Notes: a model not told the origin generated them from the sequence alone. Counted from the stretch's first letter, positions 34,673-51,289 are shown. The stretch: 64,000 nucleotides of DNA from a virus (IMGVR_UViG_3300028186_000155); one strand, 5' to 3'. Numbers and translations: made by a program.

Positions 34673-34987
34673 TTAATTGCTGCTCCGTGCTGTGATGCGG
34701 ATGGTTTGGCGTTTCAGGTCAATCAAATTGTCTCGCAGGCTATCGCGCTCGGTGGTCAGCAGGTTGATACGGCGGGTGTGCTGATCCATCGTCTTTTCCA
34801 CGAAATCAATCAGGTAAAGCTGCGCTTCCAATTCGGTGGCGAACGCTACCTGTTTGGTGGCCGTGTTGTTGTTCCATGCACGCCAGCCACCGCCTTCGAA
34901 ATATTGCGGAATGAACATGTCTTTTTCGCTGATGCCGGGGGCTGGTACGCGGGCAAAAACACGGAACGGAAATTCTGGTTTATTCAT
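34673..34987 (-). CDS. Hypothetical protein
   Basis: Tight packing. Confidence 0.6.
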   Translation of the reverse strand: MNKPEFPFRVFARVPAPGISEKDMFIPQYFEGGGWRAWNNNTATKQVAFATELEAQLYLIDFVEKTMDQHTRRINLLTTERDSLRDNLIDLKRQTIRITARSSN

Positions 34988-35390
34988 CTTTAGAAATACC
35001 TTTCAAGCGGAACACTGCACGACTGCCGTCAGGTTTGGTGCAGACTGTGCGATATGGGTTTTCCTGATCCGCATAGCTAACGTTGCGGAAACCTTCCTGA
35101 ATCCAGCCTTTTTCAAGGCACAGGCGCTGGGCCTCGAAACGTTCGGCCCAAAGCACACGCCGCTCGTAACGATCTTTACCGTTTACTGGTGGTGGAATAT
35201 CGTGCAGGATGAAATTTTCTTCCTCGATACGTTCGCGCTCTTCACGCTTGGCTTTAACCACAGCATCGCGGATTGCAGCGCTCTCGGCACTCTCTGCTTT
35301 TTCCTTGGCCTTCACGCCCTTATCTTGATAGGGATATTTGCCGTCACAACCAGCCAGCAAAACCAGTGCAAACACCACCAAATATTTCAT
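34980..35390 (-). CDS. Lipoprotein, paralog 3
   Basis: MKYLVVFALVLLAG-CD lipobox. Confidence 0.75.
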   Translation of the reverse strand: MKYLVVFALVLLAGCDGKYPYQDKGVKAKEKAESAESAAIRDAVVKAKREERERIEEENFILHDIPPPVNGKDRYERRVLWAERFEAQRLCLEKGWIQEGFRNVSYADQENPYRTVCTKPDGSRAVFRLKGISKDE

Positions 35391-35647
35391 TGCTGGCCAT
35401 TCCTTTTCAGGTAGATAACGGTGCCATCTTTCTGGCGACAAACGGCGCGGTAGCTTTCTGGCCCGCCGCTGCGCAGGTAGTTGCTGGTTTCGAACAGCAT
35501 GCCCATACGCTGGCAGATGCCTTGGGCTTCCCATTTCGCATCCCAATTCAGGCGCGTTTCTTTGGATTTATCAACGCCTCGCGAAGGTCGATCAAGGGCA
35601 TCGCAGCCAGTCAGCAACAGTGCGGCAACCACCATCAAATATTTCAT
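35387..35647 (-). CDS. Lipoprotein, paralog 2
   Basis: MKYLMVVAALLLTG-CD lipobox. Confidence 0.75.
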   Translation of the reverse strand: MKYLMVVAALLLTGCDALDRPSRGVDKSKETRLNWDAKWEAQGICQRMGMLFETSNYLRSGGPESYRAVCRQKDGTVIYLKRNGQQ

Positions 35648-35955
35648 TCTGCCACCTCGAATTGTTCCACCGGCTGATTTTCAAGCATACAGGTGGCGCG
35701 GGGTTTCATGTCGTCAACGCCCGGCACCAAACCGATGTAAACCATGTCACGATCAGCGCAAATTTTCTGTGCCTTCAGCGTGCGTTCAAACTGGCCCTTG
35801 CGGTATTCTTGACGCTCCGCCACATAGCGTTGGGCTGCTGCAATTCGGTCGGCGCGTTTTTGGTCACGATCTACCATGCTTTGATATTCTTTTTCAGCGC
35901 CCGAATCACAACCAACCAGAACCAGTGCGGCCATCACGGCCATCAGAATTTTCAT
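35644..35955 (-). CDS. Lipoprotein, paralog 1
   Basis: MKILMAVMAALVLVG-CD lipobox. Confidence 0.75.
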   Translation of the reverse strand: MKILMAVMAALVLVGCDSGAEKEYQSMVDRDQKRADRIAAAQRYVAERQEYRKGQFERTLKAQKICADRDMVYIGLVPGVDDMKPRATCMLENQPVEQFEVAE

Positions 35956-36004
35956 TGTACCTAAATCCTTGAAGGTGCCCACACCACGCAGGCACCTGTT
36001 TATC

Positions 36005-36015
36005 GTTTACAGTTT
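36005..36015 (-). promoter_or_regulatory. AAACTGTAAAC copy 3, followed by an AGGTGCC...GGCACCT leader hairpin
   Basis: Exact motif 50 nt upstream of the lipoprotein triplet. Confidence 0.65.
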
Positions 36016-36247
36016 ATTTGTCGCGGTAGCGAGCGTCACGGTCACGCACGAAGCAACGCGCACGGCGCCATGCATCTTGCGCCAGTTCACCAATCAACAT
36101 CACGAACACGAACAGGCCCATAAAGAACATGAAAAGCGGGGTCCACCATGCACGCCCGCCCGGTGGATAATGGTCGTTGCGCGTGTCGTACACAAACCAA
36201 AACGCGTAGGCCAACCACGCCCCTACAATCAGCAAAAGGAAAATCAT
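36014..36247 (-). CDS. Small 2-TM membrane protein
   Basis: Two hydrophobic Trp-rich segments; ATGA overlap. Confidence 0.65.
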   Translation of the reverse strand: MIFLLLIVGAWLAYAFWFVYDTRNDHYPPGGRAWWTPLFMFFMGLFVFVMLIGELAQDAWRRARCFVRDRDARYRDK

Positions 36248-37614
36248 TCGAAATCTCCCATGTCGTCATCGTCATGATCCACATCGTCAATCAAAACGTG
36301 CGGGATGAAACGTTCGTTGCTGGTGCCCAAAACCGGTTCGTCAAATTCACGAATACACAGTGTGGCAGCCGACGCTTCACGCAGCGAACGGTAATCGGTT
36401 GCACGATCCGGGCACATGAACATGCCGACGATGAAACTGTTACGGCCATCGACCTTGTACGGCGCTTTATATTCCTGATAAACCACATCAGAACCGCCGT
36501 AAATTCCATCGGTCGAGAACTGGTGTTCACCGTTGGCGCGATAGATCACGATGTTGTTGGACATGCGACCGATCACAGGCTTTTGCACATACGCATTTTT
36601 GCCCACAAAACGATCCGGTTTCATGTAAGTGCGCAGCACTGGAACCGTCGCATATTTGTCCGCGAAATTCTGATCGTTTTCCATCAGGTAAGTGACGTAG
36701 GCCCAAATGCCTTTGTTGGACGTAAACCAACGCCACGCCGGTTCCATGATAGTGACGTTACGCGCCCAGTTTTCCCACTGCTGATAGGCAATCGGGCAGG
36801 CCTCGACCATTTCTTCCCACGGCACCAGCGCGAAGATAACCGACAACGGCGTGTCGCCGTATTTCCACGGGTTTTCGCGGTCGGTCAGATCGAACTCGAT
36901 ATCCTTGCTCGAAATGAACAGGCAATCGTTTTCCTCGCCCATGATTTGCGCCACGACTTCCGAAGTGGCTTGCACCTCGAAACTTTCGTCGTCAAACACC
37001 ACAGCCGCCGTGCCGGGAATCTCACCCATTTCCGCAAACAGATCGGATGCCAGCGGGAAATAGGAATTCAACTGCAATTCCGAATCGCCGGTCACAGCTA
37101 CGCACACTTCGTTTTGCAACGAAACGGATTCCAGCAGCATGGTCGGGGTATCGCCGTTAAATTCGTAGATACCTTCGATCTTTTCCGTGACTGGGTTCAT
37201 CACGGCGTCAAAGCGACCGTAGATCGACTGGCGCGCCGAACTGTTGTCGCGATAGGTCCATTTTGCGTAGTCGATGAAATACGGGTGCTTGCGCAGGAAA
37301 TCGCAGCCCATATATTCCATGATGGTGCTTTCGGATTCGTTGAACAGGTGGCCCACAGCCTCGACCAGCATTGCGTAAGCGGCTTCAAACGTGAGTTCAA
37401 TATCGCGGCACGAACTCAGGTTGAAATTGTAGACCGGCAGGTTGTGTTTGTTGTTCATGGGGAACGAGAAATAATCGCGAACCGTCTGATAAAATTCTGC
37501 GTCGGCTTCCGCTTCTGGCTTCGGCATTTCGCGCCAGAATGCTTGAGTCCATGGCAGTTCGTTAACCATGAAATCGTTGAGTTCGAAAGATACTTCGTGA
37601 TACGTGCAATGCAT
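36244..37614 (-). CDS. Glutathionylspermidine-synthase-like ATP-grasp ligase (YgiC/YjfC family)
   Basis: IYGRFD, EFNGDTPT.LLES, PWE, EPAW...SNKGIWA, KPVIGR, VYQEY, IRE...FIPH motifs. Confidence 0.9.
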   Translation of the reverse strand: MHCTYHEVSFELNDFMVNELPWTQAFWREMPKPEAEADAEFYQTVRDYFSFPMNNKHNLPVYNFNLSSCRDIELTFEAAYAMLVEAVGHLFNESESTIMEYMGCDFLRKHPYFIDYAKWTYRDNSSARQSIYGRFDAVMNPVTEKIEGIYEFNGDTPTMLLESVSLQNEVCVAVTGDSELQLNSYFPLASDLFAEMGEIPGTAAVVFDDESFEVQATSEVVAQIMGEENDCLFISSKDIEFDLTDRENPWKYGDTPLSVIFALVPWEEMVEACPIAYQQWENWARNVTIMEPAWRWFTSNKGIWAYVTYLMENDQNFADKYATVPVLRTYMKPDRFVGKNAYVQKPVIGRMSNNIVIYRANGEHQFSTDGIYGGSDVVYQEYKAPYKVDGRNSFIVGMFMCPDRATDYRSLREASAATLCIREFDEPVLGTSNERFIPHVLIDDVDHDDDDMGDFE

Positions 37615-37653
37615 GATCTATTCCTTGAGAAATTGGAAGGGTGAAACGGGGAA

Positions 37654-38325
37654 TTAACCCCCGCCACCACCTTTGGCACCTGCACCACCGCCACCGCTGT
37701 GCATTGCGGACTTCACGCGGGCTTGCGTAGCCTGCTGTACCGTGGCTGGGGCACTGCTAGGGCTGGCGCGCCATTGCGATACGCGATTCTGCATATTCTG
37801 GCGATAATTCGGGCTGGCCATAACCGCATTGCGATTGCTGTTCATCAGGGCGCTGGTGTAAATGGCAGAACCACCATTCCGGCATTTACGGCGTTCGTCG
37901 CGATTGTCACAACGTTGCGTGGTCATCGGCGCATGCTGCTGTTGATATTGCTGATAGCCGCCCGATTGATTCATGGATTTTGCCAACGCGTAACCGCCCA
38001 GCGCACCGAGTGCCGCACCGCCCACCATTGGCCAGATGGAATTGCTGCTGGTGCCGTCCGCTTCTTCACGCACAACGTTCAAGACTTTTTCGCCTTTTTC
38101 GTTGACGGAATAATACACGTCTTTTACCGACGGATCTTTAGATTGAAGTTCACGCAACGCGGCCTGTGCGTCTTCCTGATCAGCAGCCATTTGCTTGCGC
38201 GTTGCTTCTGATGCCTGTTCGTCAACATACGCCTTTTCTTCATCGGGATAGGCCCCGCTATCGTCACACCCGCCCAGCAAAGCCAATGCTGCGGCGCCTG
38301 CGGCCAACAGAACTTTGTTGCTCAA
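37654..38325 (-). CDS. Lipoprotein with Gly-rich C-tail (YgiB/DUF1190-like partner)
   Basis: ALLGG-CDD lipobox; WPMVGGAALGALGGY hydrophobic Gly motif; C-term SGGGGAGAKGGGGG; directly upstream of the ligase. Confidence 0.7.
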   Translation of the reverse strand: MSNKVLLAAGAAALALLGGCDDSGAYPDEEKAYVDEQASEATRKQMAADQEDAQAALRELQSKDPSVKDVYYSVNEKGEKVLNVVREEADGTSSNSIWPMVGGAALGALGGYALAKSMNQSGGYQQYQQQHAPMTTQRCDNRDERRKCRNGGSAIYTSALMNSNRNAVMASPNYRQNMQNRVSQWRASPSSAPATVQQATQARVKSAMHSGGGGAGAKGGGGG

Positions 38326-38525
38326 TTCTTTTTCCTCAGTTTTTTAACCAGATTGTCTTTAATGATCCACACGTCCATCAGGAACATTGTGGGCTGCCAA
38401 ATGTACATGGCGAGAAAAACAATGGGCCACGCCCACCATTTCACATCGTGGTTGATCCAGCTGTACCGAAAACCCCACGCGGCCCAGCAGGTCCACAGAA
38501 CGATCAGCCACCAATACCACGCCAT
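38322..38525 (-). CDS. Small 2-TM membrane protein
   Basis: MAWYWWLIV...WWAWPIVFL. Confidence 0.65.
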   Translation of the reverse strand: MAWYWWLIVLWTCWAAWGFRYSWINHDVKWWAWPIVFLAMYIWQPTMFLMDVWIIKDNLVKKLRKKN

Positions 38526-38527
38526 GC

Positions 38528-38872
38528 CTAATCCCTTTTGATTTTGGTGAACTGGATAGCTTCCAAATCGACTGCACCACAATATTTGTGCAGAAAATCG
38601 TAAGCCCGTTGGTCGATCAGCATAACCTCGGATTGCGGCCAAGTGATTACATCCAACGGCTCGCGAACTAGATCGTTAACCGAGACTGCGATTTCTACCG
38701 GCTCTTCGTCACAAACGGAAATGTAACGGTAACGTTCGTAGCTATCGCATTTCAGTAAGACGCCCAAATATTCAAACTCGGGATCTACTTCGAGCGGCTT
38801 CCCTTCAGCATAGGACGCCAGTATCCCGGCAGCCTCGACCAACTTAATGTGGCCTTCGTGCAAAACGTTCAT
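38528..38872 (-). CDS. Hypothetical protein
   Basis: SD AGGA. Confidence 0.65.
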   Translation of the reverse strand: MNVLHEGHIKLVEAAGILASYAEGKPLEVDPEFEYLGVLLKCDSYERYRYISVCDEEPVEIAVSVNDLVREPLDVITWPQSEVMLIDQRAYDFLHKYCGAVDLEAIQFTKIKRD

Positions 38873-38884
38873 TCCACGTTTCCT

Positions 38885-38895
38885 GTTTACAGTTT
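38885..38895 (-). promoter_or_regulatory. AAACTGTAAAC copy 4
   Basis: Exact motif overlapping a stop codon; heads the ligase operon. Confidence 0.55.
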
Positions 38896-49637: not shown

Positions 49638-50387
49638 TCAGTCACCACCGCCGCCACCGCCACCGGAATCACCGCCAGAATCGCCACCGCCGCCCCAGCC
49701 CCCGGAACGGTCGCTAGTGCTAGGCGAATCATCATGGCGCGAAGGCGTATAGGACGGCGCAGGGGCCTCATGGCGCGTTTCTGCCATAGGTTCGCGGTAT
49801 CCACGCGTTTCTGCCATAGGTTCGCGGTATCCAACCGAGGGCTGGTGCAACGCGTTGCCGGTGATTTGCTCGCGCTGTTCCGGCGTAACCTTCAGCGTGT
49901 GCGTTTCTACGCTGGCGCGCCGGTTGCCCACTGTCAGGTCGCCAGGGTAGCCCTGTGCACGCTCTAGCGCATCGTCGTAAACACCGTTGACGTTTTGCGT
50001 TACCGCAATGTGCGTTGCCATCAGAATTGCAGAATCATCTGGCGGCGTGCTTTGGATTTGACCGCTGCGGTATTGCTGGCCATAACGCGCCACCTTTTCC
50101 GCTAGGTGACGTTCCGGGTGCTGGACCGGCTGGGGCTGCTCGCGCTGCAATCGGCTCAGACGGTCCGTCACTTCGAAATATTCGCGGCGCACCGAATTGA
50201 TTTCGTTTTGCAGGCCTTCGATTTGTTTGTTCTTTGCCGCCAGTTCGCGGTTTACGCGCAGCAGTTCAGCCGCTTGTGATTCGTAGCCCAGTGCCAGCAG
50301 TTTGTAGTGCGACTGGAACTCGCGGAAACGGCGGGTGCCGAACAGCTTGTCGAACCAGTAAAAATTACGCGGTTTTTGGTGATCCAT
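49638..50387 (-). CDS. Coiled-coil protein with a Gly/Ser/Asp-rich C-terminal tail
   Basis: SD GAGGA; C-term SGGWGGGGDSGGDSGGGGGGD. Confidence 0.7.
   Translation of the reverse strand: MDHQKPRNFYWFDKLFGTRRFREFQSHYKLLALGYESQAAELLRVNRELAAKNKQIEGLQNEINSVRREYFEVTDRLSRLQREQPQPVQHPERHLAEKVARYGQQYRSGQIQSTPPDDSAILMATHIAVTQNVNGVYDDALERAQGYPGDLTVGNRRASVETHTLKVTPEQREQITGNALHQPSVGYREPMAETRGYREPMAETRHEAPAPSYTPSRHDDSPSTSDRSGGWGGGGDSGGDSGGGGGGGD
49774..49833. repeat. Perfect 30-bp tandem duplication (GYREPMAETR x2)
   Basis: cgcgtttctgccataggttcgcggtatcca twice. Confidence 0.95.
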
Positions 50388-50401
50388 CAGTTTTCCTCTG
50401 C

Positions 50402-51289
50402 TTATTGTGCGCAATCATCTTGATCATCATCGTCGCATTCTTCGAGGTCGTAGCCGTAGCCAGCCTCTGCGAAATAATCCTTGCTGATTTCGTCTTGTTC
50501 GGTCAGTCCGTTGAGGTGATCAACGAACAGTTTGGTCCAGTTTTCGAACTTCACACCCGGATAGGTTTCGTACAGCTTTTGGGCCGCAACTGGCGGAATG
50601 AAATCGACGCCTTTTTCACGATTGCCTACCGTCACTCCGTCTTTCAGACGCAGACGCCACGCGATAGCCAGATGCAGACGGCCTACGTTGTCGCTATTGT
50701 CGAAAATCAGGCCTTCGAAATGCAGGGTTGCCAAATCCGCCAGATCATCCAGCGTGGCAGTCAGCCGTTCTTTCGCCGTGCCTTCTGCCCGGTAGGCGCT
50801 GAATTTTTCACCGTGAACGAAGAACGTCATTTCTTCGAATGCTTCGCGCATGATGTTTTGCAGAGAAGTTTCCAGCAGGTTCGGAATACTGGTATTGCGG
50901 TGTGTTACAGGGTCGCGCAGATAACGCACGTCCACCGCGTCGAGGTGGCCGCCCGGCATGCCCGAACCTTTGCCTTGCAGATCGGATTCGCCGTTGCCTT
51001 CACGTGCACGCATGTAGGCGTTCAGTTCCGGCAGGTAATGCGGCGTACCAGCCTGCTCTACCGTGAAGTAGTTCAGCCATTGCGCGTAATCGCGGTTGCC
51101 TTTGAACGATTCGCCCCAGTGCAAAGATTCGTCAAGGTCTTCGCGCTGGCCAATGATGAACCCGCGACGAACCAAACCGGAGAATTGTTCCCAGTCCACT
51201 TTTACGAAGCCGGTTTGACCCATGCCGAGTTGCGGAATGTCACGCAGAACGGTGCGGCGAATCGCGCCAATGAATTCTGGATATTTCAT
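50402..51289 (-). CDS. Hypothetical protein
   Basis: SD AGGA; acidic tail. Confidence 0.75.
   Translation of the reverse strand: MKYPEFIGAIRRTVLRDIPQLGMGQTGFVKVDWEQFSGLVRRGFIIGQREDLDESLHWGESFKGNRDYAQWLNYFTVEQAGTPHYLPELNAYMRAREGNGESDLQGKGSGMPGGHLDAVDVRYLRDPVTHRNTSIPNLLETSLQNIMREAFEEMTFFVHGEKFSAYRAEGTAKERLTATLDDLADLATLHFEGLIFDNSDNVGRLHLAIAWRLRLKDGVTVGNREKGVDFIPPVAAQKLYETYPGVKFENWTKLFVDHLNGLTEQDEISKDYFAEAGYGYDLEECDDDDQDDCAQ

What the first reader, a model, noticed from the sequence alone, without database searches (positions are those of the whole stretch)
36014..38895. Phage-encoded YgiB/YgiC-like peptide-ligase system with two private membrane proteins
Seen: promoter motif, then hypothetical, Trp-rich 2-TM, Gly-tailed Asp+2 lipoprotein, GSP-synthase-like ATP-grasp ligase with catalytic motifs intact (GRFD, ExNxDTP) and no amidase domain, and another Trp-rich 2-TM gene; the lipoprotein triplet follows. 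Knowledge: bacterial ygiB-ygiC and yjfM-yjfC pairs have this architecture, are linked to envelope stress, and the ligase substrate is unknown. Inference: the phage runs a membrane-associated amide-ligation system, perhaps modifying the Gly-rich tail or a polyamine/peptide, to stabilise the envelope or counter defence. This is the strongest multi-gene 'system' candidate in the window.
Basis: partly seen in the sequence, partly recalled or inferred. Interest (0 to 1): 0.7.

Follow-up and report, generated by a model that had tools for sequence, protein, structure and literature searches.

The report
Phage lipoprotein plus peptide-polyamine ligase pair
A giant Pseudomonas-type phage carries its own divergent version of the bacterial YgiB-YgiC envelope gene pair (a lipoprotein with a glycine-rich tail plus an enzyme that joins polyamines to peptide ends); the lipoprotein's tail end is the likeliest target, which would be testable by mass spectrometry.

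Summary
Only two form a conserved system: the lipoprotein (37654-38325) and the ATP-grasp ligase (36244-37614).

**Conservation**
- Both genes are present and adjacent in all 30 loci of this phage clade. 69 of 78 viral loci with a GSP_synth homologue have a comparable lipoprotein upstream, as do most of 80 bacterial loci.
- Phages acquired the pair at least three times.

**The two proteins**
- The ligase has the YgiC/YjfC fold, intact invariant motifs and no amidase domain. It forms a separate phage clade.
- The partner is not a Pfam DUF1190 member, but it has the same layout. That layout is a lipobox, an acidic outer domain, a W-P glycine-zipper segment, and a basic domain ending in small residues (GG in 52% of relatives).

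**Lineage-specific extras**
- The two Trp-rich 2-TM genes and the 114-aa gene are extras, found in 4, 2 and 3 of the 30 loci.
- The two 2-TM genes are not paralogues.

**Best reading (about 0.45)**
The ligase amidates the partner's C-terminal glycine with a host polyamine, to condition the infected cell's envelope. The topology needed for this is unproven.

The scan has found this module before on other DNA, in at least 13 genomes. The ligase gene is already annotated in Lu11, HRDY3 and phiPMW. I class it as a new variant of a known kind.

The parts
38885..38895 (-). AAACTGTAAAC motif, a probable phage promoter element, at the head of the transcription unit
   Evidence: 7 exact minus-strand copies in the window, against 1.3 expected for the search at up to 1 mismatch. 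Matches the core of Lu11's annotated putative middle/late promoter. Promoter function is inferred.
38528..38872 (-). 114-aa soluble protein of unknown function; a lineage-specific passenger
   Evidence: ORF. No Pfam, NCBIfam or PHROG hit. Homologue in only 3 of 30 related loci, including Lu11 gp279.
38322..38525 (-). 67-aa Trp-rich two-helix membrane protein (2TM-a); a lineage-specific add-on
   Evidence: ORF. Found only in HRDY3 and one IMG/VR contig. Not similar to 2TM-b.
37654..38325 (-). 223-aa lipoprotein partner. It has a lipobox Cys followed by Asp-Asp, an acidic outer domain, a W-P glycine-zipper segment, and a basic helical domain with a free Gly tail. It is the proposed ligase substrate.
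   Evidence: phrog_13808 at 5.6e-41. Directly upstream of the ligase in 30 of 30 clade loci and in all 17 Pseudomonas phage records. AF2 model pLDDT 76, with residues 211-222 disordered. Net charge -10 before and +11 after the hydrophobic segment.
36244..37614 (-). 456-aa ATP-grasp acid-amine ligase of the GSP_synth family (YgiC/YjfC type), with no amidase domain
   Evidence: Pfam PF03738 at 1.5e-36. phrog_6215 at 1.5e-94. Invariant motifs shared with YgiC and YjfC. AF2 pLDDT 91. Foldseek top hit YjfC 7UK6, E 2e-23, TM 0.82.
36014..36247 (-). 77-aa two-helix membrane protein (2TM-b), translationally coupled to the ligase stop; a clade-level positional companion
   Evidence: ATGA overlap with the ligase. 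Sequence homologues in 4 of 30 loci. A small 1-2 TM ORF sits at the same coupled position in most of the closest jumbo-phage loci (L094, L095, L097, L098, L100, L104; L099 adjacent), plus Lu11 gp276 and HRDY3.
35974..36015 (-). Second AAACTGTAAAC copy (36005-36015) and a GGTGCC/GGCACC hairpin (35974-35996). They end the unit and head the lipoprotein triplet.
   Evidence: Sequence read; motif count.

Best explanation
This is a phage version of the bacterial YgiB-YgiC / YjfM-YjfC envelope module. The working unit is two genes.

**The partner.** It is made as a lipoprotein. Its acidic N-terminal domain faces the periplasm. A W-P glycine-zipper segment sits in the inner membrane. A strongly basic helical domain, ending in about 12 flexible Gly residues, most likely stays on the cytoplasmic side.

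**The ligase.** It is a cytoplasmic ATP-grasp enzyme. It would activate the partner's C-terminal glycine carboxylate as an acyl phosphate and join it to a host polyamine (spermidine or putrescine). This is the same chemistry that glutathionylspermidine synthetase performs on the glycine carboxylate of glutathione.

**The product.** It would be a membrane-anchored protein with a cationic polyamine cap. I infer that it conditions the inner membrane or envelope of the infected cell (ion balance, membrane stability or exclusion of other phages).

**What is shown and what is inferred.** Shown here: gene order, conservation of the pair, fold and motif integrity, tail composition, and the charge asymmetry. 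Inferred: enzyme activity, polyamine as the amine, the tail as the acyl substrate, the topology, and the role in infection.
For: **Pair conservation**
- Lipoprotein and ligase are adjacent in 30 of 30 phage-clade loci and in 17 of 17 Pseudomonas phage records.
- 69 of 78 IMG/VR loci with a ligase homologue have a lipobox protein with a G/S-rich tail upstream.
- Most of 80 bacterial loci have the same arrangement. 16 of 17 sampled partners (15 from those loci plus E. coli YgiB and YjfM) are Pfam DUF1190.

**Independent acquisitions**
- The seven-phage clade has SH-aLRT 100 and lies outside the cellular sequences.
- The Aeromonas T4-like phages and RSL1 nest separately inside bacterial clades.
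- Each has its own lipoprotein. 44RR2.8t ORF096 is DUF1190 at 1.9e-21. RSL1 ORF051 ends in AGG.

**C-termini**
- Bacterial upstream ORFs, chosen by position only, end in two small residues in 52 of 74 cases and in GG in 26 of 74. Controls give 114 of 967 and 13 of 967.
- Of 163 family members, 85 end in GG and 135 end in two small residues.

**Ligase**
- Invariant R/D, E-N-D-T-P and K-P-R-N motifs.
- Fold match to YjfC, YgiC and the GspS synthetase domain.
- YgiC and YjfC have peptide-spermidine ligase activity with an unknown physiological substrate (PMC11762307; RefSeq names).
- A phage hss gene is clustered with a gss homologue, which links the family to polyamines (PMC9992855).

**Topology**
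- In all 32 members of the phage partner alignment the N-terminal part is acidic and the C-terminal part is basic. The medians are -10.5 and +10. This is the positive-inside pattern.
- The residue at +2 after the lipobox Cys is Asp or Glu in all 19 aligned members, 28 of the 32 in the wider alignment and 94 of the 148 lipobox-bearing relatives.
- Glycine-zipper Pfam hits occur in distant members.
Against: - No experiment ties the tail to the enzyme, and I could not read the primary enzymology paper.
- The mid segment is only weakly hydrophobic. The simple Hessa sum is about +5 kcal/mol, and about +6.8 in DUF1190. It may therefore not stop transfer. The tail would then be periplasmic and out of reach of an ATP-dependent enzyme, unless it is modified before export.
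- Short partner forms (RSL1 ORF051 and several bacterial ones) lack the hydrophobic segment.
- The AF2 model folds most of the 'tail' into helices, leaving only about 12 free residues.
- Some partners end in E, RR or other residues.
- The held record encodes no polyamine synthesis genes.
Confidence: 0.45

Rival explanations
1. The ligase makes a small-molecule conjugate: a free peptide-polyamine, glutathionylspermidine, or a homospermidine analogue. This would buffer or redirect the host polyamine or thiol pool. The lipoprotein would then be a membrane anchor, sensor or regulator of the enzyme, not its substrate.
For: - The characterised activity of YgiC and YjfC is on peptides in vitro.
- GspS and TryS are equally close by sequence.
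- Li et al. proposed glutathionylhomospermidine for the clustered hss-gss genes.
- The topology problem disappears under this reading.
Against: - YgiC and YjfC lack glutathionylspermidine synthetase activity (Sui 2012, as cited).
- The NCBIfam Gss equivalog scores 28.8 bits against a cut-off of 882.
- This reading does not explain why the partner's C-terminus is held to Gly or other small residues across phyla and across three phage acquisitions.
Confidence: 0.27
2. The ligase modifies some other envelope molecule or protein, for example a host protein C-terminus, a lipid amine or a cell-wall component. The lipoprotein would recruit it to the membrane or present the target.
For: - YgiC is recovered in inner-membrane fractions in a proteomics study.
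- The neighbours are membrane proteins: small TM proteins, a K+ channel-type protein in VPMCC14, a Na+/H+ exchanger in SYP, and a Band-7 protein in 44RR2.8t.
Against: No candidate target is conserved with the pair. Only the lipoprotein is always present.
Confidence: 0.15
3. The two genes are functionally unrelated passengers. The lipoprotein would be a superinfection-exclusion or receptor-masking protein like its neighbours. The ligase would be an independent auxiliary metabolic gene inherited alongside it.
For: - The next unit is a lipoprotein triplet.
- Lu11 gp275, nearby, is annotated as Cor-like.
- Phage accessory regions are mosaics.
Against: - Adjacency is kept in three independent phage lineages and in several bacterial phyla.
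- The identities of the two proteins fall together across the clade.
Confidence: 0.05

Closest known systems
E. coli YgiB-YgiC (downstream of tolC) and YjfM-YjfC (end of the yjfIJKLMC cluster): a DUF1190 lipoprotein plus a peptide--spermidine ligase (PDB 7UK8/7UKA and 7UK6/7UK7)
   Same: - Gene order is lipoprotein then ligase.
- The ligase fold and invariant motifs match.
- There is no amidase domain.
- The partner has a lipobox, a W-x-P glycine-zipper segment, and a basic Ser/Gly-rich C-terminal part ending in GG.
- The setting is the cell envelope, and membrane or ion-transport genes lie nearby in some relatives.
   Different: - The ligase is only 22-23% identical, carries about 60 extra N-terminal residues and an acidic C-tail, and forms its own phage clade outside the sampled cellular sequences.
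- The partner fails the DUF1190 HMM. It lacks the four-Cys domain and the RGGFG motif, and instead has a helix plus three-strand 'KDPSVKDVYY' domain.
- It is expressed from a phage promoter-like motif.
- No PspA, DUF350 or DUF2491 genes accompany it.
Annotated 'glutathionylspermidine synthase' genes of Pseudomonas phages Lu11 (gp277), HRDY3, phiPMW (gp102) and Delftia phage PhiW-14 (gp91)
   Same: They are direct homologues, at 64%, 58%, 37% and 32% identity. Each has the same lipoprotein family immediately upstream.
   Different: The published notes call the function unclear and do not mention the partner (PMC5587285). The window phage is a new relative, not an identical genome (79.9% DNA identity over 14% of a 4-kb query).
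Bifunctional glutathionylspermidine synthetase/amidase (E. coli Gss) and trypanothione synthetase
   Same: The ATP-grasp synthetase fold and the acyl-phosphate chemistry on a C-terminal glycine carboxylate with a polyamine nucleophile (the chemistry is from established knowledge of Gss).
   Different: There is no CHAP amidase domain. The NCBIfam Gss equivalog is far below its cut-off. Gss has no partnered lipoprotein.

Membership tests
GSP_synth ATP-grasp ligases (Pfam PF03738), YgiC/YjfC type | Profile match above the curated cut-off | tested here: met
   126.8 bits against a cut-off of 29.3, E 1.5e-36, profile positions 27-370 of 371. phrog_6215 at 1.5e-94.
GSP_synth ATP-grasp ligases (Pfam PF03738), YgiC/YjfC type | Fold of the solved YgiC and YjfC structures | tested here: met
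   AF2 model pLDDT 91.3, pTM 0.91. Foldseek: 7UK6 at E 2e-23 with target TM 0.82; 7UK8 at E 3e-20 with TM 0.76; GspS 2IO8 at E 5.8e-22.
GSP_synth ATP-grasp ligases (Pfam PF03738), YgiC/YjfC type | Conserved active-site motifs kept | tested here: met
   R134, D136, E151, N153, D155, T156, P157, K345, P346, R350, N354, R422 and E423 are invariant across the six phage enzymes, YgiC and YjfC. Most of them stay invariant across 29 phage and bacterial sequences. The role of each residue was not assigned here.
GSP_synth ATP-grasp ligases (Pfam PF03738), YgiC/YjfC type | Stand-alone synthetase with no N-terminal amidase (CHAP) domain | tested here: met
   456 aa with one Pfam family only. The N-terminal 60 residues are modelled as part of the same fold.
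GSP_synth ATP-grasp ligases (Pfam PF03738), YgiC/YjfC type | Branches within the cellular YgiC/YjfC clade | tested here: not met
   With the Gss C-domain as outgroup, the seven-phage clade (SH-aLRT 100, stem length 1.44) lies outside the 85 YgiC/YjfC-like sequences (82 cellular and 3 phage; SH-aLRT 90). The program warns of long-branch effects. It is a separate subfamily.
GSP_synth ATP-grasp ligases (Pfam PF03738), YgiC/YjfC type | ATP-dependent peptide-spermidine ligase activity | not testable with these tools
   Needs an enzyme assay. The activity is reported for YgiC and YjfC only.
DUF1190 lipoproteins (Pfam PF06693; YgiB/YjfM) | Profile match | tested here: not met
   No PF06693 hit at E up to 10 for the window protein or for four phage homologues. 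None anywhere in the record at E up to 1. YgiB itself scores 2.9e-55.
DUF1190 lipoproteins (Pfam PF06693; YgiB/YjfM) | Four-cysteine N-terminal domain and the RGGFG motif near the C-terminus | tested here: not met
   Present in alignment A2. Absent from the phage family alignment A3, which instead has a KDPSVKDVYY...GEK...VVRE domain.
DUF1190 lipoproteins (Pfam PF06693; YgiB/YjfM) | Remote homology by profile-profile comparison | tested here: inconclusive
   hhalign gives 95% probability, E 2.6e-8, with the signal peptides included. With the signal peptides removed it gives only 15-32% probability, P about 4e-4. 2 of 61 distant family members hit PF06693 weakly. One nearby Atlas cluster has DUF1190 on 14% of its members.
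DUF1190 lipoproteins (Pfam PF06693; YgiB/YjfM) | Shared layout: lipobox, W-x-P glycine-zipper segment, basic C-terminal part ending in small residues, gene directly upstream of the ligase | tested here: met
Bifunctional glutathionylspermidine synthetase/amidase (Gss) | Equivalog-level match and an amidase domain | tested here: not met
   NCBIfam NF007801 scores 28.8 bits against a cut-off of 882 and covers only residues 285-395. There is no amidase domain.

The most novel reading that the evidence does not exclude
The polyamine-capped, flexible tail of the membrane-anchored partner acts as a tethered cationic plug or gate for cation pathways at the inner face of the membrane. This would be analogous to polyamine block of inward-rectifier K+ channels. 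The phage would use it to hold membrane potential and ion balance through infection.

The reading is suggested by two observations. Ion-transport genes sit directly downstream of the ligase: a K+ channel-type protein in Vibrio phage VPMCC14 and a Na+/H+ exchanger in phage SYP. A K+ channel is also reported in the bacterial operons. In this reading the coupled small 2-TM protein of the jumbo clade would be the local partner.
Probability: 0.06. Interest if true: 0.85.

Novelty: new variant of a known kind. Interest (0 to 1): 0.45.

Why it matters
The physiological substrate of the YgiC/YjfC ligases is an open question. They are widespread in bacteria and are tied to the Cpx and Psp envelope stress responses.

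Phages have taken up the lipoprotein-ligase pair at least three times and kept only these two genes together. That marks the pair as a self-sufficient unit and points to the lipoprotein's glycine end as the substrate.

If that is right, it would define a new protein modification in bacteria: a C-terminal polyamine amide. It would also define a new way for phages to alter the host envelope. The phage pair is a compact two-gene system in which to test this by co-expression and mass spectrometry.

If it is wrong, the locus is just another annotated 'glutathionylspermidine synthase' auxiliary gene with a conserved neighbour.

Tried and rejected
- **Small proteins.** Pfam, NCBIfam and PHROG searches of the 114-aa protein and both 2-TM proteins found nothing.
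- **2-TM paralogy.** Rejected. BLASTP between 2TM-a and 2TM-b gives E 4.7.
- **The 2-TM and 114-aa genes as core parts.** Rejected. They occur in 2, 4 and 3 of 30 loci.
- **DUF1190 membership of the partner.** No HMM match. The profile-profile signal mostly vanished once the signal peptides were removed.
- **Known fold for the partner.** Foldseek found no match at E 0.001 or better (best 0.38). VIA-align gave a best Z of 4.5. I take these as uninformative, not as proof of a new fold.
- **Mid segment as a confident TM helix.** A simple Hessa sum of about +5 kcal/mol does not support this on its own. Charge asymmetry is the only positive topology evidence.
- **Polyamine biosynthesis genes.** None found in the held 195-kb record, which is 63% complete.
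- **Recent capture from a host.** Rejected. The best genome contigs identity is 27-31%.
- **Link to the protein at 49638-50414.** It ends in Asp and nothing connects it to the module. Not pursued.
- **Link to DNA hypermodification.** PhiW-14 has putrescinyl-thymine (my own knowledge). I considered this and set it aside, because the conserved partner is a lipoprotein and most carriers are not known for such DNA. It was not tested.
- **Tools and papers.** Pederick 2023 and Sui 2012 are not held in the library, so their content is cited only through reviews.
Full report
**Setting**

The window is part of a 194.9-kb IMG/VR virus record, estimated 63% complete. Its nearest named relatives are the jumbo Pseudomonas phages HRDY3 (313 kb) and Lu11 (280 kb). 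The ligase is 64% and 58% identical to theirs, but the DNA is barely alignable.

**Observation**

All genes are on the minus strand. An 11-mer, AAACTGTAAAC, sits at 38885-38895 and overlaps the stop of the preceding 340-aa gene. It occurs seven times exactly on this strand, where 1.3 matches are expected by chance for the search at up to one mismatch. It matches the core of the element that the Lu11 authors annotated as a putative middle/late promoter.

Behind it come five tightly packed genes:
- a 114-aa soluble protein (38528-38872);
- a 67-aa Trp-rich two-helix protein (38322-38525);
- a 223-aa lipoprotein (37654-38325), whose TTG start overlaps the previous stop;
- a 456-aa ligase (36244-37614), with an AAGGAA ribosome-binding site;
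- a 77-aa two-helix protein (36014-36247) that overlaps the ligase stop by ATGA.

A second copy of the 11-mer and a hairpin follow. Then comes the lipoprotein triplet.

**The ligase**

- It matches Pfam GSP_synth at 126.8 bits (cut-off 29.3) and nothing else.
- It aligns end to end with E. coli YgiC and YjfC at 22-23% identity. The Y-G-R-F-D and E-x-N-x-D-T-P motifs and later K-P...R...N and R-E positions are invariant.
- The AlphaFold model is confident (pLDDT 91, pTM 0.91).
- Its best structural matches are YjfC (7UK6, E 2e-23, TM 0.82), the synthetase domain of E. coli GspS, and YgiC.
- It has no amidase domain, and the NCBIfam Gss equivalog is far below its cut-off.
- No close cellular homologue exists among 185,579 species genomes. 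The best identity is 27-31%.

I built a quick maximum-likelihood tree of 93 sequences, rooted on the Gss C-domain. The window enzyme groups with HRDY3, Lu11, phiPMW, SYP, PhiW-14 and Vibrio phage VPMCC14 (SH-aLRT 100). This group sits on a long stem outside all sampled cellular YgiC/YjfC-like sequences. The Aeromonas T4-like phages and Ralstonia phage RSL1 branch separately inside bacterial clades. So phages took up this enzyme at least three times. The long-branch warning means the exact position of the main phage clade is unsure.

**The partner**

- The lipoprotein belongs to phrog_13808 (5.6e-41).
- It lies directly upstream of the ligase in all 17 Pseudomonas phage records that have the ligase.
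- It also does so in all 30 loci of the phage clade that I could fetch.
- PhiW-14 gp89 and VPMCC14 gp094 are members too.
- The family is small: 140 clusters at 50% identity among 1.84 billion proteins.
- Pfam DUF1190 does not recognise it.
- A profile-profile comparison with a DUF1190 alignment gave 95% probability. That fell to 15-32% once the signal peptides were removed.
- The four-Cys domain and the RGGFG motif of DUF1190 are absent.

I therefore do not file it as a DUF1190 member.

The layout is nevertheless the same as in YgiB and YjfM:
- a lipobox;
- a small outer domain;
- a W-(x)-P motif running into a GxxxGxxxG glycine zipper;
- a basic region that ends in small residues.

Some distant members hit the Pfam glycine-zipper families.

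**The pairing is general**

- In 80 bacterial loci found with the ligase, the ORF that ends at the ligase start is usually a lipobox protein with a Gly/Ser tail. 16 of 17 sampled partners (15 from those loci plus E. coli YgiB and YjfM) are DUF1190.
- In 78 viral loci, 69 have such a protein upstream.
- The independently acquired phage copies have their own partners. 44RR2.8t ORF096 is a true DUF1190 (1.9e-21) ending in GSSGG. RSL1 ORF051 ends in HASAGG.
- Bacterial upstream ORFs, chosen by position alone, end in two small residues in 52 of 74 cases and in GG in 26 of 74. Control ORFs of the same loci give 114 of 967 and 13 of 967.
- Of 163 members of the phage partner family, 85 end in GG and 135 end in two small residues.

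**The other genes are not part of the core**

- By sequence, the 114-aa gene occurs in 3 of 30 loci, 2TM-a in 2 and 2TM-b in 4.
- The two 2-TM proteins are not similar to each other (E 4.7).
- A small one- or two-helix ORF is coupled to the ligase stop in most of the closest jumbo-phage loci. In PhiW-14 and phiPMW a small TM ORF lies between the lipoprotein and the ligase. A small membrane companion is thus a recurring positional feature, but one that evolves fast.
- In two other lineages the gene after the ligase is an ion transporter. In VPMCC14 it is a K+ channel-type protein (Ion_trans_2, 2.9e-11). In SYP it is a Na+/H+ exchanger (3.8e-57).
- This echoes the K+ channel described in the bacterial PspA-linked operons (PMC11237479).

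**Mechanism**

Glutathionylspermidine synthetase activates the glycine carboxylate of glutathione and joins it to spermidine. This is established knowledge. YgiC and YjfC do not use glutathione, but they ligate spermidine to peptides in vitro. Their natural substrate is unknown (PMC11762307; RefSeq product names). A phage homospermidine synthase clustered with a gss homologue independently ties the family to polyamines (PMC9992855).

The one thing that always travels with the enzyme is a protein whose free end is Gly or another small residue. The simplest reading is that this end is the acyl substrate.

**Topology**

The obstacle is topology. The enzyme needs ATP and is cytoplasmic, while a lipoprotein is exported.

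Two results bear on this:
- Against: the mid segment is only weakly hydrophobic, about +5 kcal/mol on the Hessa scale. Short partner forms lack it altogether.
- For: in all 32 members of the phage partner alignment, the part before the segment is acidic (median -10.5) and the part after it is basic (median +10). YgiB-type proteins show the same pattern. This is the pattern expected for an N-out, C-in membrane protein.

The AlphaFold model (pLDDT 76) folds residues 141-210 into three helices and leaves only the last 12 residues free.

I put the tail-amidation model at about 0.45. Modification before export is a fallback variant.

**Role for the phage**

The role is inferred only from context. 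The bacterial modules respond to Cpx and sit with PspA paralogues. The phage copies sit among lipoproteins, a Cor-like gene, rI and Band-7 genes, and ion transporters. Conditioning of the inner membrane or envelope during infection is the most economical guess.

**Novelty**

- The ligase gene is already annotated in Lu11, HRDY3, phiPMW and PhiW-14, with the comment that its function is unclear.
- I found no paper that describes the phage lipoprotein partner or proposes the tail as substrate.
- Earlier notes of this scan reached the same reading on at least 13 other genomes, including another giant Pseudomonas-type phage.
- What I add here:
  - the separate phage clade with a non-DUF1190 partner family;
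  - the count of three acquisitions;
  - the charge-dipole argument for topology;
  - the demotion of the two 2-TM genes.

Noticed in passing
window 34980-35982 (minus strand): Three tandem small lipoproteins follow the module behind the second AAACTGTAAAC copy and a hairpin. The first most likely starts at the ATG at 35955, not at the GTG at 35982. Lu11 has a gene annotated as a Cor-like exclusion protein at the corresponding place (gp275).
   Followed up: partly
window, minus strand: 30856, 33114, 36005, 38885, 44510, 46031, 51343: Seven exact copies of AAACTGTAAAC, all on the coding strand and at gene starts where I checked. They match the core of Lu11's annotated middle/late promoter, so this is probably the phage's own promoter element.
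   Followed up: partly
L089:3697-4353 (Vibrio phage VPMCC14 gp096) and L004:4767-6023 (Pseudomonas phage SYP gp178): A K+ channel-type protein (with a TVGFGD filter; Ion_trans_2 at 2.9e-11) and a Na+/H+ exchanger (3.8e-57) lie directly downstream of the ligase in two phage lineages. This parallels the K+ channel reported in the bacterial operons.
   Followed up: partly
L090:67-1875 (Aeromonas phage 44RR2.8t ORF098-ORF096): In T4-like Aeromonas phages the DUF1190 lipoprotein is preceded by a Band-7/SPFH protein (annotated as a lipoprotein) and a small protein with a pilin-type N-methylation motif. The block lies beside rI (lysis inhibition).
   Followed up: partly
window 49638-50414 (minus strand): A 258-aa coiled-coil-like protein with a repeated YREPMAETR unit and a Gly-rich tail ending in GGGGGGGD. 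It ends in Asp and nothing links it to the module.
   Followed up: no
window 36244-36290 (ligase C-terminus): The ligases of the three close relatives compared (this window, HRDY3 and Lu11) end in a strongly acidic tail (DDVDHDDDDMGDFE here). The smaller-phage enzymes lack it. It could pair with the basic C-terminal domain of the partner.
   Followed up: no
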